From: a virus | Lineage: Duplodnaviria; Caudoviricetes | Reading direction: 5' to 3' (one strand) | IMG/VR virus record: IMGVR_UViG_3300017776_000012 | Location: 1-60,954 of that record | Length of the DNA: 60,954 nucleotides | Shown: positions 1 through 54,833 of the stretch, in pieces | How positions within the stretch are numbered: the stretch's first letter is position 1 | Layout: every line of letters begins with the position of its first letter | The notes under the pieces: model-generated | What the model saw: the letters and a program-made list of their open reading frames with translations, nothing else | Told to the model about the DNA's origin: nothing | The model's database searches: none | Made by a program: the position numbers and the translations under genes

Positions 1-123
1 AGTTTTTTTAGTATAAAGGTACTGACGAATATCTGCAGTGCCTTCAAACTGATGTCCTCCAGAAGCATTGCTTCTAACAACAGCTGGAGCCTCGGCAGAT
101 CGGTCTATTTTACTTTTTAATAC
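1..123. repeat. Terminal direct repeat, left copy (circular assembly overlap)
   Basis: 1-123 is identical to 60832-60954 and falls in frame inside the giant CDS. Confidence 0.95.
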
Positions 124-3100
124 AGAAAAGAATTCTCTTAACTCATTACCCATTCCATCAAAGGAAGAGATTCTTGACTTATACTTATTTAATCCTTCAT
201 CTGTAAGCATTCCCATAAATTCAACATTTAAAGTGGTTTCTTCATCCAACATTGATTTATGTAACGAACCCCCCTCGCTAAAGTACCCCTCCTTGTTGAG
301 GGCATCTAATCGGGCTTTGTCAATTAAAGGAGTCTCTAACTCGGATAACTTTACAAGATGATCATAAATAACAGAAGGCTGTTTGACAATAGAAGCTTTA
401 CGAATGTCCTCAACAGGCAGGATACCTGCAGCAACTAAAGTATTAGTGTCTAAAAGTCTTGACCCTTCCGGATCTTCAATAGAAGAAAGCATTTTACGTT
501 CAGTCAGCTTACCCAATGATCCGGCCCAATTGTCATAAGAAGAACCGCTATCGCTCATCATTTCTGCTCTATCTAATTTTAATTTAAGAGGAACAGGTCC
601 AGACATGTTAATAGTATGACCTTGAAGCATTCCAGACCTATAGCTTAAGTCTTGAACATACTCTGAATTAAGTTTCAGTTCTTCAGCCATCTCTTCTAAG
701 ATAGATCCTACTTCTTTCATTTTAGGATCTTCACTTTCTTTCATTGCTTTGATTTCAGATCTAGCTGAATCACCAGCACGCCCTGAGATAAGACTTTTAC
801 CTGCTAATTGCATAACATCGTCTAAGTCTCTCGATCGTTGCTCAGATCCCATAGAGTTTTCACCAAGTATTCTTCCAGATTTTCCTAATCGGCTATCATA
901 CTTTACAGTTCTAAATAAAGCTGCTCTTAACTTATCTCGATGAAAAGCCATTCTTACATTCAAGTCAGCATCTATGTTTTCTCCAATCTGAGAGAAAGTA
1001 GATAACTTGCTGCCATTGAAAGTACTTTCACTTGATAGAGAGTTATTATCGAATAGCTCAGCTATCATTTGAACAAGCATATACTTTGCATCCCCTGAGG
1101 TAAGGCTTACCTTAGAGTTAATAGTAGCCTCTGTATTAGATCCAGCCAGTGCTAGAGAGTCAATACCACCTTTAAGCTTTTGACCAATTGTTAGTTTTTG
1201 AGCCTTGGATACATAATTGCTATTTGTTGCGGCATCATACAACTCTTCCATACTATAAGTTTTTCCGCTAAGATCAGTATAATCTCCCTTTCTCATATAA
1301 GGAAGCACATGCTTTGCTAAGAATGCAATAGCCAGCTTAGGATCATCATCCACTAATTTTTGGAAATCCACTCTACCATTTGTAATTGTTTTTTGAATTC
1401 TTAGTTCAACATTATTACTAATCGCAGAGAGGGGCATAACTTCTGGCCTATCGTACTCACCGGGCTTAAGGCCTTCGCCAATGCTATTCTCTAATTCTAA
1501 AATTGCCTCATCAAGCTCTTTTACCTCTACACTATCCTTTGATTGACCAAATTCATAGATAAGAGCATCTCGTTCTTTTTTATACGCTTGAATTTGAGCC
1601 AACTTGCTTCCTGTACCCGTATTAAATTGAATGCTACCCTTACGATCCCCTAGATCGCGTAATGGCATTTCGGCCTTACCTAGAAGAACATCAGTCATGC
1701 TGTCTATTTGATTTCTATAGGAAGGATCTAAATCTAAAAATACTTTTCTAATATGCAAAATTTTAGCATATGAGAAGTTAATCATCTTCTGAAGGATGTT
1801 CTTAATAGCAGAACCAGAACCCGATACAGCTTTATCAGCATCTCTATACGCTGCTTCCATTGTTACTCGGTCTTTAAAGGTTCTTGCTTGCATATTATAA
1901 GAGAACAAAGCAGCAACAAACTCATCAGGATTCTCTAAGTAAAACTCAATCTGCCTTTTAGTCTTTCCATCTAATACGCCATTATTCATGGCTAAGACTA
2001 AACGCTTTACAAGCTCGGGAGCTTCTGGGTTATTAAGCATACTATTGGTCATATGCCATTCTGGAGATCCGTGATCATAAAGTCTAGCTTGAGCAGCATG
2101 AGCAATCTCATGAAGAATAACATCAACAGCTGTTAATTCTCTACCCAACCTACCTTTAAGAAGATGCAATGAAATGCCTGTCTTAGACGTATTGATAAAT
2201 CCAGCAGGGCTCCGTCCACCAAAGTTAGGTGCATCCAAACCTTGCTCTTTTGCGAGTTCAATGGCTTTTTGTTTAATGTTACTTGTTTCAAAGAAATCTA
2301 AGTTTTCAAGAAGATTCCCATCCATCTGAGCAAGAACAGCTCTAAGCATTTTAAGTTCTCTAACTGTAAGAGTACCGCTCTGCACTAAGGTTTCTAATTG
2401 CTTATCAATAGCCTCATGAGCTTCACTAGGCTGACCATTCTTATCTTTAATATGATTTCTAAAATTAGTCTTATTCATAAAGTACTCAGCATCACCCGGA
2501 GTACCATCTTCTTTATCGGGATACTCTCCCTTGTACAGCGGCCTATCGGTTTTAATGCCTGTATTAACATCTTGTTCGCTTCTAAGCATGATCTGCCTAG
2601 CAATCTGGACACCCTCATCAATTCTTTTCTTATGATCCTTTTGACGAGGAGTTCCGCCATCCTTGATGTTACCGGGCTCTCGGGCAGCCCGTAGCTCAGG
2701 AGATCCCGGCCTTCCCGGCTCATAATTTAACCATGCTTCATATAATTTTTGATAATCTACATTAGATAATTCTTCACCGTTTAAAATCTTAGTCTGCAGA
2801 TCAGGATCCTCTTGAAGCATCCTCAGTGCAACTGGAGCGTACCCTTGACGAGTTACACCATCACTAACAGCGATATCAATACCATGCTGCAGAATCTTTT
2901 GACTTGCTACGATTTCTTGAGCTGCTGCAAGAACTTTGTCAGTCGCCTTAATGCCATAAGCCGAAGCATATTCAGGATTGTTTAAAATCCTCATGTTAAT
3001 AAACTTAGGATTAATAAAGACAAGGCCTGCTAATCTTTTAGCATCTTTAATCTCAGCATCTGAAAGACCTCCAATCTCTTGAAGCTTCTCTATACTATTA

Positions 3101-6100
3101 CGACCAAAAATTTGCTCGCCTTCTCGGATTTCAGCCTCTTTGGCAACTATAGCTTTTCTAATTCTCTTAAAGTCATCAGCAGTAATATATTGCTTTTTAA
3201 TATCGGCTTTAATAGTTGAGGAGCGACCGCCCAAAATAGCACCTAAAGCTAGTGGTTCAATATCATCTAATCCACTAAGCATTTTTATGTCATCTAAACT
3301 CTTGACACCCAATACTTCTCTTAGCTCTTTTAAACCTACATATTCTACAGGCTCTCCGTCTTGCTTAACGCTAATGATGTATGTAGTGTCTTTGCCTTCT
3401 TTAAGGTTTAACCTGTCTTCTCCTGTAGGATCAAACATTTGACGATCTAACGTATTTAATCGCGAAGCGCTGACTTGATAAGGACTGATAAGATTTAAAT
3501 CTTCTACCCCTAATAGATCCTTTGCTGCAATCTCTTTTTGATCTAGGGTGGACATAATAACTCTATCTCTAAAGCTTTCGTCTTCCCACATTTTCTTTAA
3601 GTCTAAGTAGCGTGTCTGATGGAATGAGGATCGAGACACAACTCCGGGTTCTGCGTTTCTCTCTAAGAAGCCTAAGATTAATTGATTTTCATTATCAAGA
3701 TTTGTAGCAAACTCTCTAGTCTCATTTAAATGACTATCCATCTTAGCGTGACGAGCCTGCACTCTCTTTACATTATTATTTGCTAATGCAGAAGTAAAGA
3801 GCATATCGCCCACGTATCTATTAGAAGAAATCTGAAGAACATGTCTAGCCTGATTGGCACTAGCAACCCGTCGAGTCTGATGCCCAATGATCCTGCCTGA
3901 CATGATCTCTAATCCATTCATGGTAAATCTTACATTCTTATCAGCATTTGGAATCTCAAGATCAGAATGAACAGCTTCATGTAATCGCATGGCTTGATCT
4001 GCATTTAAAGTAAGCTCAATTAATCCATCAGTAATTTTAATCTTCTGATCTGGATACAACTCTGACATATGATTTTGTACAACTTTTCTAAGAACGGTAG
4101 CATCCTTAGCGTGAGTAATTGCAACCACAAAAGCCTCATTAGCGTCTAGGTTTTCAATATCAACATATTCACCATTTTCAGCTCTATACCCAACTGCAAA
4201 CCCTTCTTCAGGAGTGGCAAATCCCTTAACATTAAGTAACCCCCCTGCCTCAATGCGTTCACCTTGTTTCTCCTTTTTAGTAGGATCTTTAACAATAACT
4301 CTATTGTCCGAAGTTTTAAGTAAGAGAGCTCCTGTTTCTGGATCTCTGACATAGCCTATATCTTCTCCTCTAGTTGGAGCTGGCGCTGAGAATTGGGATG
4401 ATGTATCTAACTTATTGCCCTGTAAAGAACCTTGTTCGTCTACCAAGCCAACATTAGACCTACGCCGTTCGTCTTCAGATACAGACAATAAGGCTTCTCT
4501 TAGTGTGAGACGATTGCCTTGTTCGTCTCTTACTTTAAAGGTTCTGATATTCTGATAAGGATCGACAGAATTACTGTCATACGGATTATCTGCAGTGGTT
4601 TCAAAGTCCTCAACTCTTTGGTCTACAACCTTTTGCCATTTTTCTTCTAAAGCTGCAATACCTTTTGTTCTTCTAATCTTGGCTTCACTCTGAGTAATCT
4701 TGCTATCTTTAACTAGTCCGTCAAGAATTTGATCAAACTTCTTAACTTCCTCGTTAAACTTAATAACATTATTAACCCAAACCTGATGACCATAGATTAA
4801 ATCCCATCTTGGTTCTGTTTTATCGACAACTCTTTCAACAGTTCTTTCAATAGTTTTACCAGTAGGAATTTCTTCATCTACGAATTTACCAGTTCCCGCA
4901 CGGCTCTTAGCTCTTTCAGCTAACAGATAATCTAATAGAGGTTCTTTCTTTCCTCTTTTAACTTTAGCAGGAATCGTAATACCTAAGGCTTCTGCCATTT
5001 CAGTTAATTTAGTTTTAGTATATTTTCTATTACCTAAATAAGTTTCTTTAGGAAGATCTAATGTTTCTGCTTTTTCAAGATTGTTTCTTGCATCCTCTTG
5101 AGGAACCTCTCTTCGGACAGAAATCATTTCAGGCTCACTGATAGTTTCAGTAACAGTTTGTTCTCCACCTAATAAATCATCTAAGCCATACTTACGGGCA
5201 TGCTTAGTAAGAATACTTTGAACAATAATATCTGTTTGTTCAGGACTAGATTGAACACCGAGTGTTTCACTTCTACTTAGAGCTTCCATACTAATATCAA
5301 CATCAGCTAAGAATTCTTCATCCGTAAACTCAACCCGATTTCTTTCATCAATATCAAAAAGTACTCCATTCTCTTGGAGGTTTGTATCAATAGTAGTTGA
5401 ATCTCTTTCTGCCAAAAGCTTTCTCTGGACAACAGCTTTCTCGCCATCTGTTCCAGTTGCAAGCTCTTGAGTATAGCCCATAGTCTTAACTTGATGAACT
5501 TCCCTGAGTGCAGGAACACCTAATACATTATCAATATGCTGTGTGGGGTGAATAGCTCTAAAGCCAAGGCCACCGCCCATAGTTCTAGGAGTTTGAGGAG
5601 TAAGCTCCATCAATTTATTTTCAGAATTATTTTGTAATTCTCGTTCTCTTAATCTTTGCTCGATCTCAGGATTTTCTAAATCATCTAATTTTAAATTACC
5701 ATCCTCATCGTACTGCGAGCTCCAAGGATTACCAAATCTTTTACGATACTCTGAATCAGTAGTATCAACATCCTGTTCTTTAATTCTGTTAGACGCTGCT
5801 TCAATGTCATCACTTTGAGCTCTCCACTCTCTAAATGCCTGCTCTTTGGTCATAGGAGGAGTCTGAACAAGAGTACCATCCGCTGTTTTCTGCAACGGTG
5901 CATCAAACTCAGGAGAGATTGTAATAAGAGCATTCTTAAGAGCAAGCCTTCTGATCCTAATTTCTTCTAACTTAGTAGCAGCTGCAATGATATCATCTAC
6001 TGAAGCATCTGGAGAAAGAACACGTTGGCCTTTCTTAGCAAGCTGCTGATTAATCTTACGCCACTCTTCTTGAAGTTGGGTTCTATCTTTAGCCAGTTCT

Positions 6101-9100
6101 TTAATGCGATTAGCAATCTGCTCCCGCTTGGTCATATTACCCATATATTTAATATCGTAAATACCTCCAGCAAAAGCTTTACCCTGATCTACATGCTTTG
6201 CATACCAGTCTGAATGAGACAGTGCTCCTTCAGCATCAGGGTTGTTAGCATAAAGCTCTACAAGCTCAAGATCTTCTCTGGCTTCAGCCTTGCTAGTCTT
6301 AAAGGTTGCATCAGATTCTTCTACAAACTGAACGGGATCCAGAATAACTCTTCTACTTTTCTCACCCTTATGGTCCATCTCCTTAGTATGAGGAGCCACA
6401 AACCGGGTACGCCAGTCCATTAAGTTATTGATATAGATAGCATCATCTGTATTCTCTAAAGCTCTTGAAGGACTCATGCCACCAGCATCTTGACCAGTCA
6501 TCTTAAGAATATGCTTAACACTGGGGTCATCTCTAGCTACAGTAAATGCAGTTCTATTTAAAGCCTGTGTTGTACGATCAAAGAAGGTAAACTTAGATCC
6601 CGTAATAAGACTTTCAAGCTCTTTAATCTTAGGACCATCTTTACTTTCTCTTGCTTTCTGTAATTCATCAATAACAGTAAGCTCTTGCATAAACCTAAGA
6701 CGAGCGATATCCATTGCATCGTCCATAGTTTCGGGGCTTTTGGCTTTCTGTAATTTTTCGCCTACACCCGGAATAGTGCCAACTAGATCAAACTCTTTTT
6801 TACGGAGCATAGATGTTGCAAAAGCTTCAATTTGTAAAGCTCTAAAAATCACATCTACTTCTTTTGCCATAGTAGCTTTATTTTTATTGGCTAGCTTGGC
6901 AAGCTTAGTAGCGTGATCCAGCATAACCTTAATGCCATCAGGGGAATTCCACTCCAGCTTATCATCCAAGATTGCTTTAGGAAGTAAACTATTTCTTAAA
7001 CCATCAGGATCTAAAACAGCTTTCATTCTTCCTGCAGAATCTGGAATACCAGTAGCCTTTTCAACTAATCCCATTAAGGCTCTATCTTTACCGCCAAGCA
7101 TAGCAGTAGTTAATTCTTCAACAACTTGATCGTAGGTAACACCTTCTTTTTTAGCCTGAGCTAACATTGCATTTTTGTACATTGCATTATCAGGATCATC
7201 AAAGAAAGATCTAATTGAGTTTTTAACTGCTTTTCTCTTAGCGTTATAAGGAACAATCATTAAGGGCTTTTTAGCAAAGCTTCGTCCAGCTTTACTCCCT
7301 CTTACCCAGAATGGACGCTCAGTATCAGCATTATTCATTGCATATAAAGCTCGGCGTACACCTATGCTCATGCTGCTATCTCCTGCCTTATCGGGCAGCT
7401 CTGCACCAATCTCATAAGTTAAGTTCTGATAAAAGTCGATATCAGTTGAACCATCTGCTTCCACTAGATCCTTAACTAATTGTAATGCTCCTTCAGCAAC
7501 TTCAGGCTTATCAGAATTTAAAGCTTCAAATAATTGGACTCTTCGTCGGAAAGCGATACTTTCGGCAACACCGTGCTTAGAGCCATTGGTAGATCCATCA
7601 GCCTGTGCAATAAGTCGAGAGCCTTTACCCTTAGAACCCTTAGCTGCCTTAGCTACATCGTCTCCTCTTTCAAAGGCTCTTAAGATCTCAGGAGTCATTT
7701 CGGGATACAACCAAGCAGACGCATCTAAGATTGCATGGGCAATGCTATAGTTATTGTCTGGGTCTGCAAGAGGGATAGCAACAGGGAACCCACCGCTAGG
7801 ATCTGCTTCAGCCCAAGGGTTATCTCTGCCTTCTTCAATGTCATACCTGAAGTATGCTCTTGTGTTGATATCTTCCATGCGAATGCCAAACTGTCCGGGC
7901 AAGGCTTTAAGATCATCATGAATAAAGCTATAATGAGTTGGAGGTAAATCCAACATTTGTTCTACAGTTCGATCAAGGTAAAACTCAATACTCTCTACTC
8001 TATCTAAATCTGTTCTTAGTGGAGGAGGAATCTGATCAGCATGGATAGTTAAGGAAGCTCTATCTTGGGCTGTAGACATATTTTGAGTGAGATTACCATC
8101 TTGAATAAACTTAATAACGTCCTCTTCAGAAGGACCCTTAGGATCATCAAAGTCTAGTTCATTGATTCTACGGACTTTATCCTCATAGATAATCTGATCT
8201 AAAATCTTAGCAATTTGCTTATCAGTTCCGGGTTGAACCGCAGAGAAATCTTTTACTTCTTCACTATTTTTAAACTTAATGACATTAAAAGAATTAGTGT
8301 CTTCATCAAGCTCAATAACCTCAGTATTGTATCGCTTACTGCCATCTACATTATCTCTAAACAAAGAGCGAAGGGCAGCTGCCATTGTATCTGGAGTTTG
8401 GAAATCTAACTCACCATTGCCAAAGATTGCAAGTGCTTTAACGCCTTTTGCTTTTAACTCTGGGCTTATTGGCAGATAGGGAATTACTTCAGCTTCAATA
8501 TACTCAATTGCATTCTTAGTATTTAATAAAGAGCTTCTTGAGAGGTTATCTCCCTTACGGCTACTGAGAGTAATTAAACTTTCTACAAGTTTATTGACAT
8601 AATCTTCTTCATTTGCAGCACCTCTAACTTCAGTACCAGCTTTATTCTTAGCTTCCTGAGCTTCTTGTTTTCTTAACTCAGTCAATAACTGAGATTGCTC
8701 AAGACGTACTTGTTGCGGAGTCTTGCTTGCAGCTGTAGCAGCAGAACTTTGCTCTATTGCCATGTCACGTTGCAGTCCAGCTCTTTTGGCTCTTAACTTG
8801 TCTAATGCTTCCACTTCTTTATTTAGAAGATCTTTAACAGTTTCAAGAGTTTCGCCTTCTTGTAAAGGTTCTTTACCAGAAGCTCTTTTAGTTAAAGATT
8901 CTATTCTATCTTTAGATTTAGCAACACTAGCATTAATTATGGTATACCTTGCAGTGTACTCCTCATTCAGATCTTCTGCTAACTGACGAGTTTTCACATA
9001 TTGAATACCTAAGTCTCTTCTTCGTTCTAAGATCTGAAGAACTTGTTCTAAATTAAAAGTATCAAATTCTCTAGTCGTTCCTTGAGATGCTAACGCTTGT

Positions 9101-12100
9101 CCAAAGACAGCATCAATATCAATGTCAGCTAAAACACTTATGTTGTCATCAATGGCAGATTTAAACAAGGACATGACAGCAGCTCTTGTGCCAGTGCCTT
9201 CATTACCTAAAGATGCATGTTTAGTTTCAGACATCATAACATTCTTAAGTTTTAAGATGGCAGACTCAAGAGCTTGAATATCTTCGTTAATATCATAATC
9301 TAATCTGCTAGCAGCTGCTCTTGCATTTCTAGTTTCAAGGTCTGCTTTAGCATCTGATCTAACTCTAGGTGCTACAAATCTAGACGGATCTCCCATCTTA
9401 ACGTTATCAAGCATTGCTAAAAGAACAGTATTCGCTTGCTTAGCCTGACTCTTCCCTAATTCAAAATCTGCTTCAACGCTTGCTGTATCGTATAAAGTTC
9501 TACGACCAGAAATTGAATTCTGAATATCACGATCATTAACATTTCTTTCGTTAATAACGTCTTGTGCCTCTAAGAGAAGTTGACGCATATTAGCTTCATC
9601 TAATGTCTTTAACTGTAAAAGAGGGTGACTGCTAGGAAGGTATCTTCTAAACAGCTGTCTAGCAAGAGCCTGTGAAACCGTACCATTTGATTTTTCATAG
9701 GCATCTAAGATAGCTTTATTGGTTAAAACTTCAATACTATATTTATCGTAGTTTTTATTAAGCTCTACTTCACGTTGCTCTTCAATGATTCCGCTTTGAT
9801 CTCTAAAGCCAGCACTTGTAGGAATGTCTCCCTGATTATCAGGATCGATGTTTAAATCGCCTGCTTCATTCTGGGCAGCTAACTTTCTAAGTTTTTCTAA
9901 TCGTTCTTTTAAGTATTTGGTTTTCTGATCAGTAATATCTTTTGATTTTCCCCTTTTAGTTTTTCTCTTCTCAGCATTACCAAACTTAGTTTCAACATCA
10001 CTTAACTCTTCTTGGAACTCAATTAAAGTATCTAAAATTTCTCTAGTATCTTTATCCTTTGAATCGACTAATTTCAAGAGCTGCTTAAAAGCTTTTTCTT
10101 TTTTCTTAGGATCAGAGCTCTTAAGATCTTTAACAAGCTTTCTTCTTGCTCCTCTTTTATTTTTACCTATTCTATTGATAACCTTAGGATCAAAAGAAAT
10201 GCCATTAGCTTCTGCAAATGCTTTAATATCAGCAAAGCTGCTTTTAGCTGTAGCAGTTTGTTTCTCAATGCCCACATTCTTTGCCGCAATAAGTTCTTCT
10301 AAACGAGATCTTTGTTCGGCAGTTAAAGGAACTTTACGATTAAGCTCTAACTCTTTAATTGTTTCAGCTGTAAACTTAAAGTTTAAAGCTGCTTCAAAGT
10401 TATTAAGAATGAGCTGAAGCCGTCTTTTTCCTTCAGGAGTCTTTGTTAATTCTTCAGCCGTATTACCTACAGTTAAAAAATCAATCATTCTATTTTTAAT
10501 TCCACCAATAACAGCCTCATCTTCATCAAGCTTAAGTGTAATCTCTGATACTTCTGCATCTACGCCTTCTTGCCTCGTAATTGCTTCAGCAATTCTAGCT
10601 TCAATCAACTCTTGTACTTTAGCACGTCTTTCCTCAGGATCTGGATACGACTTAATGATAGTTTGAAGCTCTGCGTCAACTCCCAATGCTTCTTCTTCTG
10701 CAGCTAAAAGACCGTATTGCTTTTCTTTAAATCTTTTAATATCTTCGTCAGAGTAGAAAGTACCGTCTTTACCCCTCACTTTACTTTGAAACTCTGGGTC
10801 ATCTATAAGCATAGCTCTAAGTCCTTGAGGACCAAGCCCTGAGAAAGTTCCATCTTTTATAGAACTTGCATACTTCTTTTCAATTGATTCTACAGCTCTC
10901 CCTAGGGCCTCTTCCATATCCCCCTCATAGATGGTATTATTCATACCTTCTGTAAATCCAAACCTACTTCTAAGTTCATCTACAGTTGTAACTTGACCAT
11001 CAGTTAAGAGTGATACCATGACATTTGCTCTGGCTCTTTGTCTGGCTCCGCTAAGAAGCAGTTTTGTTCCAACATCTTCTCCTTTAAGCCATCCCATGAA
11101 TCCAACGTTTGATGCCTCATCGAAGTTGTTGTTGGCCTCTGGAGTATCTCCATATACTCTAGCCCAAAGTTCTTTTTGATTTTTAAGTTTATCTGCTGCT
11201 TTAATTCCTTTATTTCCAAATAGCGACTGCAAGTAAAACTCTTTAATCTCTACGTCTTTATTCCCCTTAATGTATTTTTCAACACCAAGGCTAACGCTAG
11301 AACCCATTCCCTTAAATGCAGCACCTAATCCCAAAGAAGCAACAGCACTGGTAAGCGTAGCTGCTGCCCAGTTATCCATAAAGTTAATATCTTCACCTTC
11401 ATTATAAAGGGTAGATAGGATAGATTTTCTTTCTGAATTGCTATAGGCATTTGCAAGGAGTCCTCCAGCAGCTCCATCGATACCCTGAGCACCAGACCAC
11501 ACTAAAGCTTTAGTGGCTCGACTCCAAGTAGTCTGGGTCTCCATTAAAACTTCAGCTAGATTGCCAGTCATGCTTAAGGATCCCGGCCTGACTTTTAACA
11601 AGAGTTCTGTAGCTCTTCCTAAACCTTTGAATTTTTTTGGATCAAGCTTTTCAAGTTGCTTAATCTTTGCTAACTTCTCTTTAACCTTTCTTGACTTATT
11701 AGCAATCTTTCCTGCACGCCGAGCCCACTTAGCGGTAAATACACTCCAGTAAGCTGTAGTTGCTGTAGCACCGATTGGAGCAGCTGCACCTGCTGTAGCT
11801 GTTGTACCTAAGATAGACCCACCTGTTACAATAGCACCTCCTAGTAACTCAATTCCCATTTCTGGAGCCATATCAGGATCTTGGACCAGCATATCTTTAA
11901 TGCTAGTAAGCATGCCTATTTCTGTGTTCCGACTTAACTGCATTTGCTCTAAGACCAACTGATGCTCATAAAGGCGTCTAGATACAGCTTCCATTCCTTT
12001 AACAAAAGCACCTGACTGGCTTTCAGAGAACATCAATGAGTTTTCTTTTGTAACTCCAGCTTGATCTAGCATTTGTTTTAAAACAGGATCTGTTGTTAAA

Positions 12101-12868: not shown

Positions 12869-13180
12869 TCACTGTTGGTTTCTTAAGTTCTGTAATAAAA
12901 ACATGTTATTCATGTTTGCAATTTCTTGAGGCTTCTGACCTCTATCTAATAACAGATTATAATCCCGCTCATTTAATTGACCGCGACTAGAGTCTTGTTT
13001 GACATTAACATTAGCAGGAGCTGGATGCCTTTTGATTGTAGGCCTAGATCCTTCTTCTGCAATGAGCTCTACTAGTTCATCTTGCGAGTTCACTTGCATA
13101 GGCTCAATGGTAATTTTTTTACCGTCTAATGGATTTAACCATGTATTTGCGCGTGGTGTTGGTAATAAAAAAGTTCTCAT
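12869..13180 (-). CDS. Hypothetical protein in ejection-protein operon
   Basis: 103 aa ORF; ATGA overlap with the upstream gene; its stop abuts the RBS of the giant gene. Confidence 0.7.
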   Translation of the reverse strand: MRTFLLPTPRANTWLNPLDGKKITIEPMQVNSQDELVELIAEEGSRPTIKRHPAPANVNVKQDSSRGQLNERDYNLLLDRGQKPQEIANMNNMFLLQNLRNQQ

Positions 13181-17424: not shown

Positions 17425-17426
17425 TT

Positions 17427-18467
17427 TTAAATTCCTTGTCCGCCAATTGGCGCACTGTATGAAGTACCTGTAGGTGAGTTATATGTATAATAGCCTGAAG
17501 GTATTCCTCCGCCTGTAACTACTGAGTCACCCCCCGGTAAAGTTACTGTATTTGTTGCGGGGGATCCCCCAAAACCTTGTCCCCCTGCATTGACGTATGC
17601 TCCAACACCGCCCGCAATACTACCTGCAACGCCCATTAACATCTGAGAATTTGCAGCACTCTTAGCCGCTTGATAGCCTGTTGCGATATTCTGAGTTTCA
17701 GCTTTCTTTGCAATCTCAGCATTGCTTCTAATAAGATCTGCCATTGTTCTAATGTTTGCAGCTTCTGCATCAGCAGAGGCTCTTAAAGAGGCTGAGCTAT
17801 CATATAGGGTAGGCTTTCTACCGGGGACAAATAATGATTTTGAAGACTTTCTTGCTTTAACTTTAATGCTGCGTCTAGCATTTCTTTCAGCTGATCTCAG
17901 TTGAAGCCTTGCAGTAGTATCGTTATTTATAATCTCTTTATCTAAACTATTATAGGCTGCAGCTTTGTACCTCATGACTGAAGAAGAGTAAGGATTAAGA
18001 TTTCTTTTATTAGCAGTATTAGAGAAAGCGTTTAGAGATTTACTAAACTGTTGGTTTGCTGTAGTGTTGGCTTTTTCTTGTTGCATTAAAATGCCCATCT
18101 GCTGATCAGCAAGCTCGTCAGCTAGACCTAAAGGAATGCTTACTCCTCCGCCAGCTCCTGAAGAACTTTGAAAATTCTTCTGCATGACTGCCAGTTGTTC
18201 TCTGTGACTAGCATACTTATAGTTAGCCATAGCAACTTTATTGTTCATATTCTCTTGAGCAATAGCAGCATTAGTCTGTGCAAAGATTCCTTGAATCTGC
18301 ATAGCTTCTTCAGTATCTGCTTTTTGCATAGTCATTTGATAGTTAGCTGCAGCAGCCCGTCTTCTATTTTCTGCCTCTGCTTTTGCTGCTTTTTTAGCGG
18401 CACTGCTTCCAAAAATGCTAGAAGCAATACCTGCTCCTGCTACAATACTTGCTGCTACAATTGGCAT
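17427..18467 (-). CDS. Internal virion protein, T7 gp14-like
   Basis: Ala/Gly hydrophobic N-terminus (MPIVAASIVAGAGIASSIFG), then Ala/Gln coiled coil, then a C-terminal GVAGSIAGGVG segment. Confidence 0.7.
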   Translation of the reverse strand: MPIVAASIVAGAGIASSIFGSSAAKKAAKAEAENRRRAAAANYQMTMQKADTEEAMQIQGIFAQTNAAIAQENMNNKVAMANYKYASHREQLAVMQKNFQSSSGAGGGVSIPLGLADELADQQMGILMQQEKANTTANQQFSKSLNAFSNTANKRNLNPYSSSVMRYKAAAYNSLDKEIINNDTTARLQLRSAERNARRSIKVKARKSSKSLFVPGRKPTLYDSSASLRASADAEAANIRTMADLIRSNAEIAKKAETQNIATGYQAAKSAANSQMLMGVAGSIAGGVGAYVNAGGQGFGGSPATNTVTLPGGDSVVTGGGIPSGYYTYNSPTGTSYSAPIGGQGI

Positions 18468-27030: not shown

Positions 27031-27042
27031 CTAGTTTCTAGT
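27031..27042 (-). promoter_or_regulatory. Candidate phage promoter motif ACTAGAAACTAG upstream of the capsid gene
   Basis: Exact copy at 52893-52904 and a 1-mismatch copy at 48231-48242; all intergenic. Confidence 0.5.
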
Positions 27043-44826: not shown

Positions 44827-44884
44827 TTATGATTCCTATGTATACCTAAGTTCCTTGCGACTGTAGTTGATACTAAGTGGTTAG

Positions 44885-44957: not shown

Positions 44958-44962
44958 TGAAA

Positions 44963-48230: not shown

Positions 48231-48242
48231 CTAGTCTCTAGT
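48231..48242 (-). promoter_or_regulatory. Candidate phage promoter motif ACTAGAGACTAG
   Basis: 1-mismatch copy of the 27031/52893 motif, just downstream of a strong terminator. Confidence 0.45.
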
Positions 48243-48286: not shown

Positions 48287-48341
48287 AAAAAAAAAATGGG
48301 CTATCCTAGGATAATTCCTAGGACAGCCCATATACGAAGTT
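48287..48341 (-). terminator. Strong intrinsic terminator ending the short-RNAP operon
   Basis: Minus RNA AUGGGCUGUCCUAGGA-AUUA-UCCUAGGAUAGCCCAU followed by a long U run. Confidence 0.9.
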
Positions 48342-48632: not shown

Positions 48633-50558
48633 TTAGGATATAAGAGATATTGACATATCATTAATATCCCATGAACCTTTATTCGGTATCGATTTAGTTG
48701 GAAGTCCATCAAGTTCATTGAATGATAATTCCATATGAGTATCAATCATGCCTTGACGTACAATTTCTTTGATTTTAATACAATCTATAATTCTTGTACC
48801 CCATGAATCATGAATAGGAGATACAGGAATATTTTCTTTAAACGCTAAACTACATGAATATAACATTACTGCTGCATCAATAGAGTGAATTCTGTTAGGA
48901 CTTTGGCCTGCGGTACTTGCTACATTTTGCAAGACTTCAGAGATGCCTCTACTTTTGCTGTATGGTACAGTAAAGTTAATATCTTTTTCTAGTGTTACTG
49001 CTTTTTGATTGAAACAGAACATACCAATAGGTGATTTCCATTGAACACTTCTGTTATGAAGATTAAATGTCTTTTGAGACACTTGTTTCATGAAATTAAT
49101 AAATTCAGTAATAGATGGGAATAACAATTGAAGAGATCTAGAATAAGCATTTGCTAGACAAAGTAAAAGATGTCCGGGTTTAACTCCAGCTTCTCTTGCT
49201 GCTTTAACAGTTTTAGGAAATGGGATTTCATTCTTATTAATGACTTGACCCCATGTTAACTTGTCAAGTACATCAATTTCTTTCTGATCTTCTTCTAGCG
49301 TATACTTTACGTCTGCGTCATTTAGCCAGCCTCTTGCAATACCCATGATTGATGAACCATAAGCAATGATCATAACTGGTTTCTTTGCAGATTTACGAGA
49401 AGACAATTCATCATAAACTTCTTTGTTTTCAAGTAATGAAGATACATCGTACTCTTTGCCATATTCTTTGTATGTAAAGAAACGATTGTTTTCTACTGCA
49501 TGAGACGCAGTAACGCTGTACAGATCTTCATTTTTATCAATCTTAGTTCTAAGTGCCGTATGGTATGCAAGTCTAGCATCTTTCATAATACAGGCCATGT
49601 GACCCATACCTGAGCATGTAGCATCTTGTTGCATGATGTATGAAGTTTCACCATACTGCAAGCACTCGTACAATGCCAGTGCTGCCCTGTAACGACACCA
49701 TACTTTATCTTTAGATTTGTATATTTTCTTTTCAATGCCGTAATACGGATCATTTAGGATATGTGCATAGTTATCTACATTGATATTATACTCATCTTGT
49801 AAATGTTGTAAGAAGAGTTTGAAGTATGCACAACTTATATCAACTGCATAATTCTCAGCATAGTCACACAAGGCTCTGTGTATATCGCCATTCTGATATG
49901 ACAACAATGAGCCTGAATCTGTGTAAATGCGACCACGCCAGTCTAAGAAACACGGAAGATAATACTCATGTTCTTGTTCTTTTTTGGCATATTCAATACA
50001 ATAACTCTCAATGTGTTGATCATCTGAAAGAACAATATGTCTTTTCATAGCTTGAAGTACATGTTGATTTATTTTGTAAGGTACTTCTTGAATAGTATTA
50101 ATAGCATCTACTTGTTTCTGAGAAGCCCATGTCATAGGTCTACCACTAATTAAATAGTCTGAACTAGTGTTTGTAATTTCTAGTTTTCTTGGTTTATTTT
50201 TCAACGGTCTAATAGGTTCTAGAGCATTATCTCGATGATCATGATCAAAGAATACCTTGTTTGTTTTACCGTTAACTAGAATGATTCCATTTTCTTGCCA
50301 TGTTCCAATGAGTTTCCATAATTGGATTTGAACATGAGCACAATCATTTGGATTCTCTAGTGCTGCAATAGTAGGTGCATGCTTTCTAATCCATTCGTAT
50401 GCTTTTAGATTAAACTTATCAAAACCTCTCATTTCTCGCCAAAAGTCTACGGATAGAGGTGTTACCCACTCATCCATATAAGATGGCATATATTTAATAG
50501 ATTTAGCAGAGTCAATTAGCTTATCTAAGGTTTTGTTCAACTTTATTCCTTTTTGCAA
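48633..50558 (-). CDS. Second single-subunit RNA polymerase, short (N-terminal domain reduced)
   Basis: AINTIQEVPYKIN, LDWRGRIY, SYQNG, QQDATCSGMGH, DLY, RKSAKKPVMIIAYG, WKSPIG, PNRIHSIDA, IHDSWG. Confidence 0.93.
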   Translation of the reverse strand: MQKGIKLNKTLDKLIDSAKSIKYMPSYMDEWVTPLSVDFWREMRGFDKFNLKAYEWIRKHAPTIAALENPNDCAHVQIQLWKLIGTWQENGIILVNGKTNKVFFDHDHRDNALEPIRPLKNKPRKLEITNTSSDYLISGRPMTWASQKQVDAINTIQEVPYKINQHVLQAMKRHIVLSDDQHIESYCIEYAKKEQEHEYYLPCFLDWRGRIYTDSGSLLSYQNGDIHRALCDYAENYAVDISCAYFKLFLQHLQDEYNINVDNYAHILNDPYYGIEKKIYKSKDKVWCRYRAALALYECLQYGETSYIMQQDATCSGMGHMACIMKDARLAYHTALRTKIDKNEDLYSVTASHAVENNRFFTYKEYGKEYDVSSLLENKEVYDELSSRKSAKKPVMIIAYGSSIMGIARGWLNDADVKYTLEEDQKEIDVLDKLTWGQVINKNEIPFPKTVKAAREAGVKPGHLLLCLANAYSRSLQLLFPSITEFINFMKQVSQKTFNLHNRSVQWKSPIGMFCFNQKAVTLEKDINFTVPYSKSRGISEVLQNVASTAGQSPNRIHSIDAAVMLYSCSLAFKENIPVSPIHDSWGTRIIDCIKIKEIVRQGMIDTHMELSFNELDGLPTKSIPNKGSWDINDMSISLIS

Positions 50559-52892: not shown

Positions 52893-52904
52893 CTAGTTTC
52901 TAGT
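52893..52904 (-). promoter_or_regulatory. Candidate phage promoter motif ACTAGAAACTAG
   Basis: Identical to 27031-27042; lies between a terminator and the next RBS. Confidence 0.5.
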
Positions 52905-52916: not shown

Positions 52917-52953
52917 TGAAAGCCCCGGACACGTGATAGTGTGCCCGGGGCTT
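52917..52953 (-). terminator. Intrinsic terminator
   Basis: Minus RNA AAGCCCCGGGCAC...GUGUCCGGGGCUU followed by a short U tract. Confidence 0.7.
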
Positions 52954-52963
52954 CCGTCGTTAG

Positions 52964-53726: not shown

Positions 53727-53792
53727 TGTAATTCTCCATTAGAATTGATAAAAGCAGGTCAGACACACAACGTGTCCAACCACATGGATGCA

Positions 53793-53806
53793 CGCCCGCA
53801 AGGGCG
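53793..53806 (-). promoter_or_regulatory. Candidate hairpin promoter (CGCCC-GCAA-GGGCG on the template strand), copy 2
   Basis: Identical 14-mer at 54820; 67 nt upstream of an early ATG; no U tract. Confidence 0.55.
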
Positions 53807-53930
53807 TATCCGTAGTCTCGGAAGATGTCAAACGTGCAACCAGTGCTCGTCGTAAAGGTCAGTCGTAGTAGTAGTCGCTAGTCTCGCGTAAGCGTAAGCC
53901 ACTATCACGCTGTCGTGCCTAGTGCAGGGC

Positions 53931-53957
53931 AAAAAAAGAAAGCCCCCGAAGGGGCTT
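53931..53957 (-). terminator. Intrinsic terminator
   Basis: AAGCCCC-TTCG-GGGGCTT followed by TCTTTTTTT. Confidence 0.9.
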
Positions 53958-53960
53958 AAT

Positions 53961-54050
53961 TTATTTCGCTGCTTTCTTTCGAGCCTGAGCCTTCTTGATT
54001 ACAGCCTTCAATGGATTACTTAATAACACTTTAAACTGATTGTGAGTCAT
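53961..54050 (-). CDS. Small basic peptide (not in ORF track)
   Basis: MTHNQFKVLLSNPLKAVIKKAQARKKAAK; AAGGAG RBS; ATGA coupling. Confidence 0.5.
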   Translation of the reverse strand: MTHNQFKVLLSNPLKAVIKKAQARKKAAK

Positions 54051-54749: not shown

Positions 54750-54819
54750 GGTAGTATCTCCTTGACATGCATTAACAGACAGGATGTGTTACACTCTGCA
54801 ACACAATCATAAAAGGGCC

Positions 54820-54833
54820 CGCCCGCAAGGGCG
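54820..54833 (-). promoter_or_regulatory. Candidate hairpin promoter (CGCCC-GCAA-GGGCG), copy 1
   Basis: 71 nt upstream of the first early ATG; preceded by AAAA on the template strand. Confidence 0.5.

What the first reader, a model, noticed from the sequence alone, without database searches (positions are those of the whole stretch)
1..54833. Three single-subunit RNA polymerases: a candidate three-tier, host-independent transcription cascade
Seen: RNAP motifs in the giant virion protein, in 48633-50558 (641 aa, early region) and in 42343-44826 (827 aa, head of the replication module). There are also two classes of repeated intergenic element (GCAA hairpins before the first genes; ACTAGARACTAG before later operons), and intrinsic terminators divide the early region into units. 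Known: T7 uses host RNAP then one phage RNAP; N4 uses vRNAP, then RNAPII, then host RNAP. Inference: injected vRNAP -> short RNAP -> T7-like RNAP, a hybrid of both strategies. I know of no described phage with this triple set, but cannot search to confirm.
Basis: partly seen in the sequence, partly recalled or inferred. Interest (0 to 1): 0.95.

Follow-up and report, generated by a model that had tools for sequence, protein, structure and literature searches.

The report
T7-like phage with three RNA polymerases
An uncultured marine T7-like phage encodes two ordinary phage-type RNA polymerases plus a third polymerase module inside a 4,983-residue cysteine-free protein that is probably injected with the DNA, so it may start its own transcription without the host enzyme.

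Summary
The window is a complete, circularly assembled 60.8 kb phage genome with T7-like gene order, all genes on the minus strand. The three polymerase genes are real. The 827 aa protein is a full-length T7-type RNAP (PF00940, 2e-84). The 641 aa protein is an N-terminally short RNAP (1.4e-29) from its own deep clade, with all catalytic motifs invariant in 12 of 12 members. The third is a giant ORF that wraps the contig ends (4,983 aa) and sits in the T7 gp16 slot. It has 0 cysteines. Its module aligns to T7 RNAP residues 530-736 (hhalign 96%, E 2.9e-9).

Motifs A, B, T/DxxGR and an IHDD motif C are invariant across 14 homologues that are about 27% identical. Their order is C-A-B-T/DxxGR, not the canonical one. 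Both AlphaFold attempts failed, so no fold confirms this.

The trio recurs in both other sufficiently long relatives. The distant one has 11 hairpin units, all in the first 5.7 kb, ending just after its short-RNAP gene. No deposited phage (50,697 records) matches the giant module, and six literature searches found no description.

The cascade vRNAP, then short RNAP, then T7-like RNAP is plausible but untested. The 12-mer does not sort by tier. This scan's own first-reader notes had already flagged these features on the same genome.

The parts
1..12858 (-). Giant ORF, N-terminal 4,286 codons. It starts at 12858 and runs off the window at position 1.
   Evidence: It has 0 Cys. Homologues are 4,070-5,011 aa long.
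58738..60831 (-). Giant ORF, C-terminal 697 codons plus stop. It continues in frame across the circular junction; 60832-60954 repeats 1-123.
   Evidence: The total is 4,983 aa.
3679..8421 (-). Conserved core of the giant protein (aa 1480-3060), which holds the polymerase module.
   Evidence: Conservation profile. hhalign and sub-HMM results. No tblastn match in 50,697 phage records.
7912..7923 (-). IHDD (aa 1646-1649), a motif-C-like element lying upstream of motif A.
   Evidence: H and D are invariant in 14 of 14 homologues, and three lineages read IHDDFGT. hhalign maps it to T7 794-818 at E 0.0084, or 3.1e-4 with the sub-alignment. The window's own HMM score of -2.6 bits is not above shuffles.
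7573..7599 (-). Motif A, DGxxNGxxH (D1754-H1762).
   Evidence: Invariant in 14 of 14 homologues. It lies within the 96% hhalign match.
7246..7284 (-). Motif B, RxxxKxPxMxxxY (R1859, K1863, Y1871).
   Evidence: Invariant. Covered by phrog_414 at 1.6e-5. It aligns to N4 motif B at E 0.0013.
6403..6417 (-). DWRTR (aa 2148-2152), a T/DxxGR motif lying downstream of motif B.
   Evidence: Invariant DWR[TS]R. The T7 400-450 HMM hits this site in 14 of 14 homologues, with P0014 at 20.5 bits. Shuffle maxima for five of the six proteins tested were -0.3 to 4.0; P0010 gave one outlier of 12.9.
4102..4113 (-). HAKD (aa 2916-2919), a conserved H-x-x-D that possibly corresponds to T7 HSQD.
   Evidence: Conserved in 13 of 13 homologues that reach it. 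The hhalign match is only E 0.34, or 0.059 with the sub-alignment.
2098..2112 (-). HEIAH (aa 3583-3587), a zincin-like HExxH motif.
   Evidence: H3583, E3584 and H3587 are invariant in 8 of 8 aligned homologues. The motif was located. No Pfam family was hit.
12869..18467 (-). Three cysteine-free proteins (103, 1,415 and 346 aa) directly upstream of the giant gene. They are presumed ejection or internal-core proteins.
   Evidence: 0 Cys in each. They lie after the terminase and tail-tube genes. Only one weak PHROG hit of unknown function was found.
48633..50558 (-). Short single-subunit RNAP (641 aa as listed). Relatives suggest a start about 7 codons further in.
   Evidence: PF00940 at 1.4e-29 with no RPOL_N hit. 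It aligns to T7 358-875. The motifs are invariant in 12 of 12 family members.
42343..44826 (-). Full-length T7-type RNAP (827 aa).
   Evidence: PF00940 at 2e-84, RPOL_N at 6.8e-9, phrog_414 at 6e-173. It is under 31% identical to any deposited phage RNAP.
44884..45036 (-). tRNA-Arg(UCU) and tRNA-Leu(UAA), immediately upstream of the long RNAP gene.
54819..54834 (-). GC hairpin 1 (CCGCCC-TTGC-GGGCGG on the coding strand), 70 nt upstream of the first early ATG. A second small hairpin follows it.
   Evidence: The G001 copy reads CTGCCC-TTGC-GGGCAG, which is one compensatory pair.
53793..53806 (-). GC hairpin 2 (the same CGCCC-TTGC-GGGCG), inside a roughly 250-nt leader that is highly conserved with G001.
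53940..53957 (-). Terminator-like hairpin with a T run, ending early unit 1.
52918..52955 (-). Terminator-like hairpin ending early unit 2.
48296..48331 (-). Terminator-like hairpin with T10, ending the unit that holds the short RNAP.
52893..52904 (-). ACTAGAAACTAG, 35 nt upstream of the first ATG of the short-RNAP operon.
   Evidence: G001 has CACTAGAGACTAC at the same place.
48231..48242 (-). ACTAGAGACTAG, before the operon that leads to the tRNAs and the long RNAP.
27031..27042 (-). ACTAGAAACTAG, between the scaffold gene and the major capsid gene.
53871..53882 (-). ACTAGCGACTAC, a variant copy inside the conserved leader.

Best explanation
This is the complete genome of an uncultured marine podophage of the T7 supergroup. 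It carries three polymerases of the single-subunit (T7/N4/mitochondrial) kind.

What is shown:
(1) An 827 aa full-length T7-type RNAP sits at the head of the replication module.
(2) A 641 aa RNAP lacks about 150-180 residues of the N-terminal domain. It belongs to its own deep clade and is encoded in a terminator-bounded early unit.
(3) A 4,983 aa cysteine-free protein in the gp16 (internal core/ejection protein) position holds a polymerase module. All four hallmark motifs of the module are invariant in the family but stand in the order C, A, B, T/DxxGR.

What is inferred:
- The giant protein is packaged and ejected with the three cysteine-free proteins encoded before it, as N4 does with its vRNAP.
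- Its polymerase module transcribes the first units from the hairpin-bearing leaders, which also helps to draw the DNA in.
- One of these units yields the short RNAP, which takes the role of N4 RNAPII and transcribes the middle region with the tRNAs and the T7-type RNAP.
- The T7-type RNAP then transcribes the replication and structural genes, as in T7.

Whether host RNAP is dispensable is open.
For: Genome and synteny: the record is complete, with terminal repeats and a 123-bp overlap. The T7-like order runs RNAP, gp2.5-like SSB, primase/helicase, DNAP, exonuclease, portal, scaffold, capsid, tail tube A/B. The portal is about 30% identical to 2,197 T7-like records.

The two ordinary RNAPs: Pfam and PHROG hits. 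The alignments show T/DxxGR, A, B, HSxD and C. These residues are invariant in 12 of 12 short-family members.

The giant module:
- hhalign of 14 homologues against 55 T7-like RNAPs gives 96.1%, E 2.9e-9, over giant 1747-1979 = T7 530-736. The next three suboptimal alignments are exactly motif C, T/DxxGR and HSQD.
- The A-B sub-HMM hits 14 of 14 homologues at 9.2-31.3 bits. Reversed controls reach at most -0.1 and shuffles at most 7.1.
- The T/DxxGR sub-HMM hits the same site in 14 of 14.
- PF00940 scores 22.3 bits in the G003 giant, and 22.6 and 24.3 bits in two family fragments. It scores 21.9 and 16.9 bits, just under the cut-off of 22, in two more.
- phrog_414 scores 2.3e-13 in P0014.
- In the Atlas feature search, 21 of 30 named hits are PF00940 clusters. 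This is a lead only.

Ejection:
- The giant protein has 0 Cys in 4,983 aa, and 7 full-length homologues also have 0. The three upstream proteins have 0.
- The two cytoplasmic RNAPs have 13 of 641 and 16 of 827 Cys.
- Passages in PMC3821669 and PMC10747016 treat lack of cysteine as a mark of N4 vRNAP.

Conservation of the trio: PF00940 hits in three separate ORFs occur in G000, in G003 (63 kb, giant only 27% identical) and in the 38 kb fragment G001. The 19.8 kb fragment G002 holds only the giant gene.

Early elements:
- G003 has 11 copies of a hairpin-plus-box unit, all on the coding strand and all within its first 5,741 nt. Ten lie before and one right after its short-RNAP gene.
- The window and G001 each have two GCCC-TTGC-GGGC hairpins at equivalent early positions, with one compensatory stem change.
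- Sigma-70-like sites are not enriched: 31 found against 36.1 +/- 5.5 expected.
Against: - No fold evidence exists. AlphaFold2 gave mean pLDDT 49.0 with 6 sequences and 45.3 with 13 sequences.
- Foldseek found nothing at E <= 0.001. T7 RNAP appeared only at E 1.5 and 3.5 over about 146 columns.
- In the window's own protein the direct family hits are weak (phrog_414 at 1.6e-5 only), and P0008 and P0011 gave no RNAP family hit.
- The motif-C assignment is weak. The best HMM score is 4.7 bits, while shuffles reach 5.3.
- The IHDD site is hit in 12 of 14 homologues. It is the top hit in 9. In the window, L005 and P0005 a hit near HAKD scores slightly higher. P0009 and P0010 gave no hit.
- The motif order is not a simple circular permutation of T7, which calls for caution about whether one chain folds into a working palm.
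- The window has only 2 hairpins and 3-4 copies of the 12-mer, and no long repeated promoter family.
- The 12-mer precedes units of all supposed tiers.
- There are no virion proteomics, no transcript data and no known host.
Confidence: 0.5

Rival explanations
1. The scheme is T7-like with help from the host. Host RNAP transcribes the first units. The giant protein's polymerase module serves mainly as a motor that pulls the genome in, or transcribes only a short leader. The short and long RNAPs share middle and late transcription.
For: The rest of the genome is T7-like, and T7 itself relies on host RNAP for early genes and DNA entry (recalled textbook knowledge). The GC hairpins are each followed by a T-rich run and score as intrinsic-terminator-like sites, so they may be terminators and not vRNAP promoters. 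The window has few repeated early elements.
Against: Sigma-70-like sites are not enriched in the early region. In G003, 11 units with a conserved box of about 25 nt and no -10-like element precede nearly every early gene. A packaged polymerase whose catalytic motifs are invariant is costly to keep only as a motor.
Confidence: 0.25
2. The polymerase-like module of the giant protein is not a working RNA polymerase. It is a rearranged relic kept for a structural or DNA-binding role in the ejectosome, or it has another nucleotidyl-transfer activity.
For: The motif order C-A-B-T/DxxGR is scrambled. Large inserts separate the motifs: about 280 aa between B and T/DxxGR and about 770 aa from there to HAKD. 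No confident fold was obtained. There is no significant similarity to solved RNAPs by sequence.
Against: The catalytic Asp of motif A, the R/K/Y of motif B, the HD of the motif-C-like element and DWRxR are invariant in 14 of 14 homologues. Those homologues share only about 25-34% identity in this region. That pattern fits selection on catalysis. The best family matches are to RNAP families, not DNA polymerase families.
Confidence: 0.13
3. The short and long RNAPs are not successive tiers. They are parallel enzymes with different promoter sets or conditions of use, for example one as a back-up against host defences.
For: The same 12-mer stands before the short-RNAP operon, before the long-RNAP operon and before the capsid gene. 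No second promoter class was found.
Against: In both the window and G003 the short RNAP gene closes the early block. It is followed by a terminator or by the last hairpin unit. The long RNAP gene lies about 4-6 kb further on, at the head of the replication genes. This layout is that of N4 RNAPII genes within N4 early genes.
Confidence: 0.12

Closest known systems
Coliphage N4 (Schitoviridae) transcription scheme: vRNAP gp50, RNAPII gp15+gp16, then host RNAP
   Same: Both have a giant cysteine-free virion protein with an internal single-subunit-type polymerase module, encoded next to other ejection proteins. Both have a small early-encoded RNAP of about 640-670 residues in all that lacks most of the T7 N-terminal domain. 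Both have hairpins in the early leaders (abstract start of PMC4496689 in the listing).
   Different: - The genome backbone here is T7-like, not N4-like.
- The giant protein is about 1,500 aa longer. It shows only E 0.0013 to mini-vRNAP at motif B and no vRNAP Pfam domains.
- Its motif order is not canonical.
- The small RNAP is one chain, not two. It does not group with gp16 in the tree, where the gp16 branch of 4.56 is unresolved.
- The third enzyme is a phage T7-type RNAP in place of host RNAP.
Phage T7 and other Autographivirales: a single RNAP gp1 and internal core proteins gp14/15/16
   Same: The gene order and the replication and structural genes are alike. The 827 aa RNAP has the RPOL_N and RNA_pol domains. 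The giant gene sits in the gp16 position, after two or three internal proteins and before the fibre genes.
   Different: T7 has one RNAP and no polymerase in its core proteins, and its early genes use host RNAP (recalled). Here there are two extra polymerases. The terminase gene lies between tail tube B and the internal proteins. The genome is about 20 kb larger.
Virion RNAPs fused to structural proteins in other phages (crAss-like phi14:2 gp66; Thermus P23-45 tape-measure RNAP)
   Same: The principle is the same: a polymerase rides on a huge injected structural protein and transcribes pre-early genes, one of which encodes a second, non-virion RNAP (abstract starts of 10.1101/2020.03.07.982082 and 10.1101/2022.12.01.518664 in the listing).
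   Different: Those enzymes are two-barrel (multisubunit-type) polymerases. This one is of the right-hand T7/Pol I type.
Permuted palm (C-A-B) RNA-dependent RNA polymerases of birnaviruses and permutotetraviruses
   Same: Motif C lies upstream of motif A in the chain.
   Different: That is a different polymerase family. Here T/DxxGR also follows motif B, and no structure shows that the palm is formed.

Membership tests
Single-subunit DNA-dependent RNAP (Pfam RNA_pol PF00940), 827 aa protein | Score above the Pfam gathering cut-off, N-terminal RPOL_N domain, and motifs T/DxxGR, A, B and C in canonical order | tested here: met
   284.4 bits against a cut-off of 22. RPOL_N scores 36 bits against 30.1. 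DFRGR, MDGSCNGIQH, RKCAKRPCMTYAYG and MIHDSFG are visible and aligned.
Single-subunit DNA-dependent RNAP (PF00940), 641 aa protein | Score above the cut-off, with the catalytic motifs present and conserved | tested here: met
   103.7 bits against a cut-off of 22. D206-R210, D312, R388/K392/Y400, H558/D561 and H583/D584 are invariant in 12 of 12 members.
Full-length T7-type RNAP, 641 aa protein | N-terminal promoter-binding domain (RPOL_N, about 300 residues before the thumb) | tested here: not met
   There is no PF14700 hit. The alignment to the 827 aa enzyme starts at residue 146 against 300, and to T7 at about 157 against 358.
N4 RNAPII, 641 aa protein | Heterodimer of two gene products split between T/DxxGR and motif A | tested here: not met
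   It is a single ORF here and in 12 of 12 relatives. N4 gp15 ends just after T/DxxGR, and gp16 begins before motif A.
N4 RNAPII, 641 aa protein | Specific sequence kinship with gp15/gp16 | tested here: inconclusive
   Pairwise BLASTP gives E 5e-4 to gp15 and 0.004 to gp16, at the motifs only. In the quick tree the short clade (13 rows, support 99) is separate, and gp16 sits on a branch of 4.56.
Single-subunit RNAP, giant protein module | Profile-level homology to RNA_pol over the palm motif A and the fingers motif B | tested here: met
   hhalign gives 96.1%, E 2.9e-9. The A-B HMM hits 14 of 14 homologues. PF00940 is at or over the cut-off in 3 family members and just under it in 2. phrog_414 scores 2.3e-13 in P0014 and 1.6e-5 in the window.
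Single-subunit RNAP, giant protein module | Canonical order T/DxxGR, A, B, C in one chain | tested here: not met
   The order along the chain is IHDD (1646), motif A (1754), motif B (1859-1871), DWRTR (2148).
Single-subunit RNAP, giant protein module | Right-hand fold with a complete palm | tested here: inconclusive
   The two AlphaFold2 models have pLDDT 49.0 and 45.3. Foldseek found no hit at E <= 0.001. The VIA wide library was unavailable.
N4-type vRNAP (Schitoviridae gp50) | Sequence or domain kinship (vRNAP Pfam domains, mini-vRNAP) | tested here: not met
   No vRNAP domain family appears at E <= 0.1. hhalign to mini-vRNAP gives 18.5%, E 0.0013, at motif B only. The exhaustive profile search found 18 hits in 1.84 billion proteins. 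The 11 with E <= 1e-10 match several hundred profile positions and read as the same giant family; the seven weaker hits were only partly classified and include P0025, a weak PF00940 protein.
N4-type vRNAP (Schitoviridae gp50) | Lack of cysteine in a giant virion protein | tested here: met
   The giant has 0 Cys in 4,983 aa, and 7 of 7 full-length homologues also have 0.
N4-type vRNAP (Schitoviridae gp50) | Packaged in the virion and injected; transcribes early genes from hairpin promoters | not testable with these tools
   Only indirect evidence is available: the gene's position, the cysteine-free neighbours and the early hairpins.
T7 gp16-type internal core protein | Position after gp14/gp15-like proteins and before the fibres | tested here: met
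   The downstream genes hit phrog_10356, a virion structural protein family.
T7 gp16-type internal core protein | Sequence homology to gp16, or a lytic transglycosylase domain | tested here: not met
   No such Pfam or PHROG hit was found.

The most novel reading that the evidence does not exclude
A lineage of T7-like marine phages has built a right-hand (T7/Pol I-type) RNA polymerase with rearranged connectivity into its 5,000-residue gp16-like ejection protein. In this module motif C comes before A, and T/DxxGR comes after B. Together with a minimal early RNAP and a classical T7-type RNAP, it makes the whole infection cycle independent of host RNA polymerase. This would be a third, independently evolved kind of virion RNAP. 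It would also be the first non-canonically connected member of the single-subunit RNAP family, and a living link between the T7 and N4 strategies.
Probability: 0.3. Interest if true: 0.92.

Novelty: new variant of a known kind. Interest (0 to 1): 0.78.

Why it matters
Phage transcription strategies are textbook cases. T7 uses host RNAP and then one phage RNAP. N4 uses an injected RNAP, then a second phage RNAP, then host RNAP.

A T7-backbone phage that carries an injected polymerase module and two more phage RNAPs would show that the two strategies can be combined. It would give a natural system for asking how virion RNAPs arise from ejection proteins. It would also offer three new orthogonal single-subunit RNAPs for synthetic biology, one of only about 630 residues.

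If the rearranged motif order is borne out by a structure, it would extend the known topological freedom of right-hand polymerases to the DNA-dependent RNAP family.

The family is rare and uncultured. The exhaustive profile search found 18 proteins in 1.84 billion representatives, the 11 strongest of which read as members of this family. A few marine virome contigs were also found. The case therefore rests on sequence for now.

Tried and rejected
Structure of the giant module
- AlphaFold2 on aa 1480-2560 of the window (6-row alignment A3) gave pLDDT 49.0.
- AlphaFold2 on P0014 aa 1146-2292 (13-row alignment A4) gave pLDDT 45.3.
- Foldseek against the PDB gave no hit at E <= 0.001 for either model. 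The second listed T7 RNAP at E 1.5 (probability 0.82, 146 columns), which I do not count as evidence.
- The pdb_via_wide library was not available.

Sequence searches of the giant module
- Against solved structures, phmmer on aa 1500-3100 and the A1 profile returned only chance-level coiled-coil hits.

- It read HAKD as the HSxD motif, with motif C 25 residues later at D2944. I rejected it for motif C because D2944 is replaced by A, E or L in the distant clades.
- HAKD itself is conserved but matches T7 HSQD only at E 0.059-0.34.
- I first read EDINTRAY (about aa 1662) as T/DxxGR. I rejected that because it is not conserved.

Other rejected or empty leads
- I looked for a simple circular permutation. 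The order C-A-B-T is not a rotation of T-A-B-C.
- I looked for a repeated T7-style promoter family in the window and in G003 outside the early block. None was found.
- The exact 12-mer is absent from G001, G002 and G003.
- Rfam found only the two tRNAs.
- Sequencing runs: no RNA holder is listed. Read laying was not used, because only contigs of DNA viromes were on offer.
- Searches of IMG/VR for relatives of P0014 and P0011 found nothing.
- The contigs of P0005-P0008 and of the 56-65 kb contigs that carry more distant long RNAPs could not be fetched. The wider spread of the trio is therefore untested.
- The careful tree search did not finish in 300 s. The quick IQ-TREE result is reported, using all 77 rows.

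Literature
- Six searches found no paper describing this trio or a rearranged single-subunit RNAP. They cover only CC-licensed PMC and bioRxiv.
- I read passages of PMC10747016, PMC3821669 and PMC10654107.
- For PMC4496689, PMC13434306, PMC11445570, 10.1101/2020.03.07.982082 and 10.1101/2022.12.01.518664 I saw only search-listing abstract starts.
- No supplements were opened.

Full report
WHAT THE WINDOW IS

The window is a whole IMG/VR virus record of 60,954 bp, classed as having direct terminal repeats and 100% complete. Its first and last 123 bases are identical. It is therefore a circular assembly of 60,831 bp.

All long ORFs lie on the minus strand. PHROG hits give a T7-like order, read from high to low coordinates:
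- a set of small early genes (54.7-45 kb);
- an RNAP (42343-44826);
- a metallophosphoesterase and a gp2.5-like SSB;
- primase/helicase, DNA polymerase and exonuclease;
- portal (28052-29650), scaffold and major capsid protein (25571-26899);
- tail tube A and B, and large terminase (18915-20666);
- proteins of 346, 1,415 and 103 aa;
- the giant ORF;
- three further genes, two of which hit a virion-structural PHROG.

The portal is about 30% identical to 2,197 T7-like phage records and under 60% identical to all of them. The 827 aa RNAP is under 31% identical to any deposited phage RNAP. The phage is thus a deep, uncultured branch of the T7 supergroup. Near-identical DNA is held by viral metagenome runs from at least two samples, and related contigs come from marine metagenomes.

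THE TWO ORDINARY RNAPs

The 827 aa protein matches Pfam RNA_pol at 2e-84 and RPOL_N at 6.8e-9, and phrog_414 at 6e-173.

The 641 aa protein matches RNA_pol at 1.4e-29, with no RPOL_N hit.
- It aligns to T7 RNAP residues 358-875 and to the 827 aa enzyme from residue 300 on. It is only 22% identical to that enzyme.
- It therefore lacks about 150-180 residues of the N-terminal domain. It keeps T/DxxGR (DWRGR), motif A (QQDATCSG), motif B (RKSAKKPVMIIAYG), HSID and motif C (IHDSWG).
- A search of 5.8 billion proteins found 11 relatives of 625-663 aa at 33-88% identity, and a further set of about 480-530 aa PF00940 proteins.
- In the 12-row alignment every catalytic residue is invariant.
- In a quick maximum-likelihood tree of the motif-A-to-C-terminus region (77 rows, all used; the careful search did not finish), the short enzymes form a 13-row clade (support 99) on a stem of 1.47. 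That clade includes the G003 copy and is apart from the 51 full-length T7-like rows. The 827 aa enzyme sits with the G003 long copy in a 15-row clade (support 99).
- The short enzyme is thus not a recent duplicate of the long one.
- Its similarity to N4 RNAPII is confined to the motifs: gp15 at E 5e-4 and gp16 at E 0.004. N4 gp16 sits on a branch of 4.56 whose place is unresolved.
- It is collinear with gp15 plus gp16 and of like total size (641 against 269 + 404 aa), but it is a single chain.

THE GIANT PROTEIN

The ORF from 12858 to 1 is open at the window's edge. The frame continues from 60831 to a stop at 58738, giving 4,983 aa. Homologues of 4,870-5,011 aa align along the whole length, which supports the wrap-around reading.

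It has no cysteine at all. Nor do 7 of 7 full-length homologues (4,070-4,995 aa), nor the 103, 346 and 1,415 aa proteins encoded just before it. The two cytoplasmic RNAPs, by contrast, have 13 and 16 cysteines. Passages in two papers treat lack of cysteine as a property tied to passage of N4 vRNAP through the tail and periplasm (PMC3821669; PMC10747016). Together with the gp16-like position, this makes an ejected internal protein the natural reading. No proteomic evidence exists.

IS THERE A POLYMERASE IN IT?

In the window's own protein the direct evidence is thin. There is phrog_414 at 1.6e-5 on aa 1808-1980. There is no Pfam hit and no sequence match to solved structures.

At family level the evidence is firm.
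- I collected 14 distinct homologues: 5, loci, and 4 from the exhaustive HMMER search. They share only about 25-34% identity between clades in this region.
- PF00940 scores 22.3 bits (cut-off 22) in the giant ORF of G003 and 16.9 bits in that of G002. It scores 22.6 and 24.3 bits in two family fragments and 21.9 bits in P0014.
- phrog_414 scores 2.3e-13 in P0014. P0008 (PHROGs) and P0011 (Pfam) gave no RNAP hit.
- hhalign of the 14-row alignment of aa 1450-3160 against 55 T7-like RNAPs gives 96.1% probability, E 2.9e-9, for giant 1747-1979 against T7 530-736. That span covers motif A, the fingers, motif B and the W-x-P-x-G element.
- An HMM of T7 525-745 hits this site in 14 of 14 homologues at 9.2-31.3 bits. 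Reversed sequences reach at most -0.1, and 1,800 shuffles reach at most 7.1.
- DGxxNGxxH (D1754) and RxxxKxPxMxxxY (R1859, K1863, Y1871) are invariant.

THE OTHER TWO CATALYTIC MOTIFS AND THEIR ORDER

The next three suboptimal hhalign alignments are, in rank order:
- giant 1631-1654 to T7 794-818, which is motif C (E 0.0084; 3.1e-4 with the sub-alignment);
- giant 2139-2165 to T7 412-436, which is T/DxxGR (E 0.039; 0.0042 with the sub-alignment);
- giant 2914-2927 to T7 782-795, which is HSQD (E 0.34; 0.059 with the sub-alignment).

DWR[TS]R at 2148 is invariant. In P0014 the surrounding sequence is close enough to score 20.5 bits with the T7 400-450 HMM. All 14 homologues have their hit at this site. 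Shuffle maxima for five of the six proteins tested were -0.3 to 4.0, with one outlier of 12.9 for P0010.

The HD of IHDD at 1646 is invariant, and three lineages read IHDDFGT against T7's IHDSFGT. The HMM support is weak, however.
- The best score is 4.7 bits, while shuffles reach 5.3.
- The site is hit in 12 of 14 homologues and is the top hit in 9.
- In the window, L005 and P0005 a hit near HAKD scores slightly higher. P0009 and P0010 gave no hit.

The residue that a companion first-reader note proposed as the motif-C aspartate (D2944) is not conserved.

The best reading is therefore the order C (1646), A (1754), B (1859-1871), T/DxxGR (2148), HxxD (2916). This is neither the canonical order nor a simple rotation of it. 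N4 RNAPII shows that the fold tolerates a break between T/DxxGR and motif A. Permuted C-A-B palms are known in some RNA-virus polymerases; that is recalled and was not checked here. A working enzyme is therefore conceivable.

I could not confirm it. Both AlphaFold2 runs were of low confidence (pLDDT 49.0 and 45.3), and Foldseek found nothing significant.

The module is only marginally like N4 mini-vRNAP (E 0.0013, at motif B). The exhaustive profile search of 1.84 billion representatives returned 18 proteins. The 11 with E <= 1e-10 match several hundred profile positions and read as this same family. The seven weaker hits were only partly classified, and include P0025, a weak PF00940 protein. 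None carried a vRNAP annotation in the two Pfam checks I ran. No deposited phage has a match. An ESM-Atlas feature search pointed to PF00940 clusters in 21 of 30 named hits, which is a lead only.

IS THE TRIO CONSERVED?

PF00940 searched over the whole records gives three separate ORFs in each of three records:
- the window;
- G003, which is 63 kb and estimated complete, with a long RNAP of 836 aa, a short ORF of 697 aa and a giant ORF of 4,253 aa;
- the 38 kb fragment G001, where the third hit is the start of the long RNAP at the contig end.

The 19.8 kb fragment G002 holds only the giant gene.

Pattern scans of IMG/VR found the short-RNAP family only in G001 and G003, and the giant family only in G001-G003. 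These scans work by peptide patterns and can miss members. Between the window and G003, identity falls from about 61% (long RNAP) to about 35% (short RNAP) to 27% (giant).

REGULATORY ELEMENTS

In the window the early region reads, in the direction of transcription:
- a 192-nt non-coding stretch with hairpin CCGCCC-TTGC-GGGCGG (54834-54819) and a second small hairpin;
- two genes, then a terminator-like hairpin (53957-53940);
- a 320-nt gap that holds a leader with the same GCCC-TTGC-GGGC hairpin (53806-53793);
- one gene, then a terminator-like hairpin (52955-52918);
- ACTAGAAACTAG (52904);
- nine genes that include the short RNAP, then a terminator-like hairpin with T10 (48331-48296);
- ACTAGAGACTAG (48242);
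- the genes leading to two tRNAs (Arg-UCU, Leu-UAA) and the long RNAP.

The third 12-mer copy lies before the capsid gene. About 250 nt of the gap are almost unchanged in G001. G001 has both hairpins at equivalent places, one with a compensatory C-G to T-A change.

In G003 a different, much more repeated unit is present. It consists of a GC hairpin with a stem of about 11 bp, a conserved box of about 25 nt (TCCTTGTTGATCTGGCAAT.GTGCC), and a Shine-Dalgarno site. There are 11 copies, all on the coding strand and all within the first 5,741 nt of 63,334. Ten lie before and one directly after the short-RNAP gene (3644-5692).

This is the clearest sign that the block ending with the short RNAP is a separate transcription class served by a phage-specific element. 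Sigma-70-like sites are not enriched in the window's early region (31 against 36.1 +/- 5.5).

Two cautions apply. The hairpins are each followed by a T-rich run, so they may act as terminators, promoters or both. And the 12-mer stands before the short-RNAP operon, the long-RNAP operon and the capsid gene, so it does not mark one tier.

VERDICT

The giant protein very probably carries a polymerase module derived from single-subunit RNAPs (about 0.85-0.9). It is probably an injected, active enzyme (about 0.6-0.65).

The three-tier order (giant protein, then short RNAP, then T7-type RNAP) is the best-fitting scheme, at about 0.5. It rests on synteny in two divergent genomes, the early hairpin class and analogy with N4. 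Full independence from host RNAP is possible but unshown.

I found no description of such a phage in six full-text searches, which cover open-access papers and bioRxiv only. First-reader notes of this same scan had already flagged the giant protein, the short RNAP, the hairpins, the 12-mer and the HExxH motif on this genome. I tested most of them here, and I disagree with one of them, on the placement of motif C.

Noticed in passing
window 44884-45036 (-): Two tRNA genes, Arg(UCU) and Leu(UAA), lie directly upstream of the T7-type RNAP gene. Their anticodons read AGA and UUA, which suit an AT-rich phage in a GC-richer host.
   Followed up: partly
window 53727-54046 (-), and L005 27430-27660: A non-coding leader of about 250 nt is almost identical between the window and G001, although the flanking genes are more diverged or absent. 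It holds a terminator, an ACTAGCGACTAC box, the GCCC-TTGC-GGGC hairpin and a second hairpin with an 11-bp stem. No Rfam family matches it.
   Followed up: partly
G003 (L028) 186-3662 and 5726-5741: There are eleven copies of a 50-74 nt hairpin-plus-box unit, one before nearly every early gene. All lie within the first 5.7 kb of a 63 kb genome.
   Followed up: yes
window 2098-2112 (-), giant aa 3583-3587: An HExxH (HEIAH) motif and a downstream PDEF..A.FSY block are both invariant in 8 of 8 aligned homologues. This suggests a zincin-like peptidase domain C-terminal to the polymerase module. No Pfam hit was found.
   Followed up: partly
window 18915-20666 (-): The large terminase gene lies between tail tube B and the internal/ejection proteins, not at the end of the genome as in T7. 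G003 has the same arrangement.
   Followed up: no
window 30996-32015 (-): A 339 aa protein with 10 cysteines and no PHROG hit sits inside the replication/structural junction. A first-reader note used it to infer a Planctomycetota host. I did not test that.
   Followed up: no
proteins P0037-P0047: A separate clade of about 477-531 aa PF00940 proteins (10 rows, support 92) is even shorter than the 641 aa enzyme. One carries a source label from a Flavobacteriales MAG. This may be another family of minimal single-subunit RNAPs.
   Followed up: no
protein P0025 (1,360 aa): This is the only non-family hit of the giant-module profile that I classified (E 4.3e-4, at motif B); several weaker hits were not classified. 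It has a weak PF00940 match (22.2 bits) and pairs with N4 mini-vRNAP in the quick tree. Both sit on long branches, so the pairing may be an artefact.
   Followed up: no
protein P0011 aa 1742-1777: One divergent giant-protein homologue carries a Rho_N (SAP-like nucleic-acid-binding) domain, at 30.1 bits, inserted between the motif-C-like element and motif A.
   Followed up: no
window 56087-58379 (-): Two adjacent genes of 381 and 378 aa both hit the virion-structural phrog_10356. They are likely paralogous fibre or receptor-binding proteins downstream of the giant gene.
   Followed up: no
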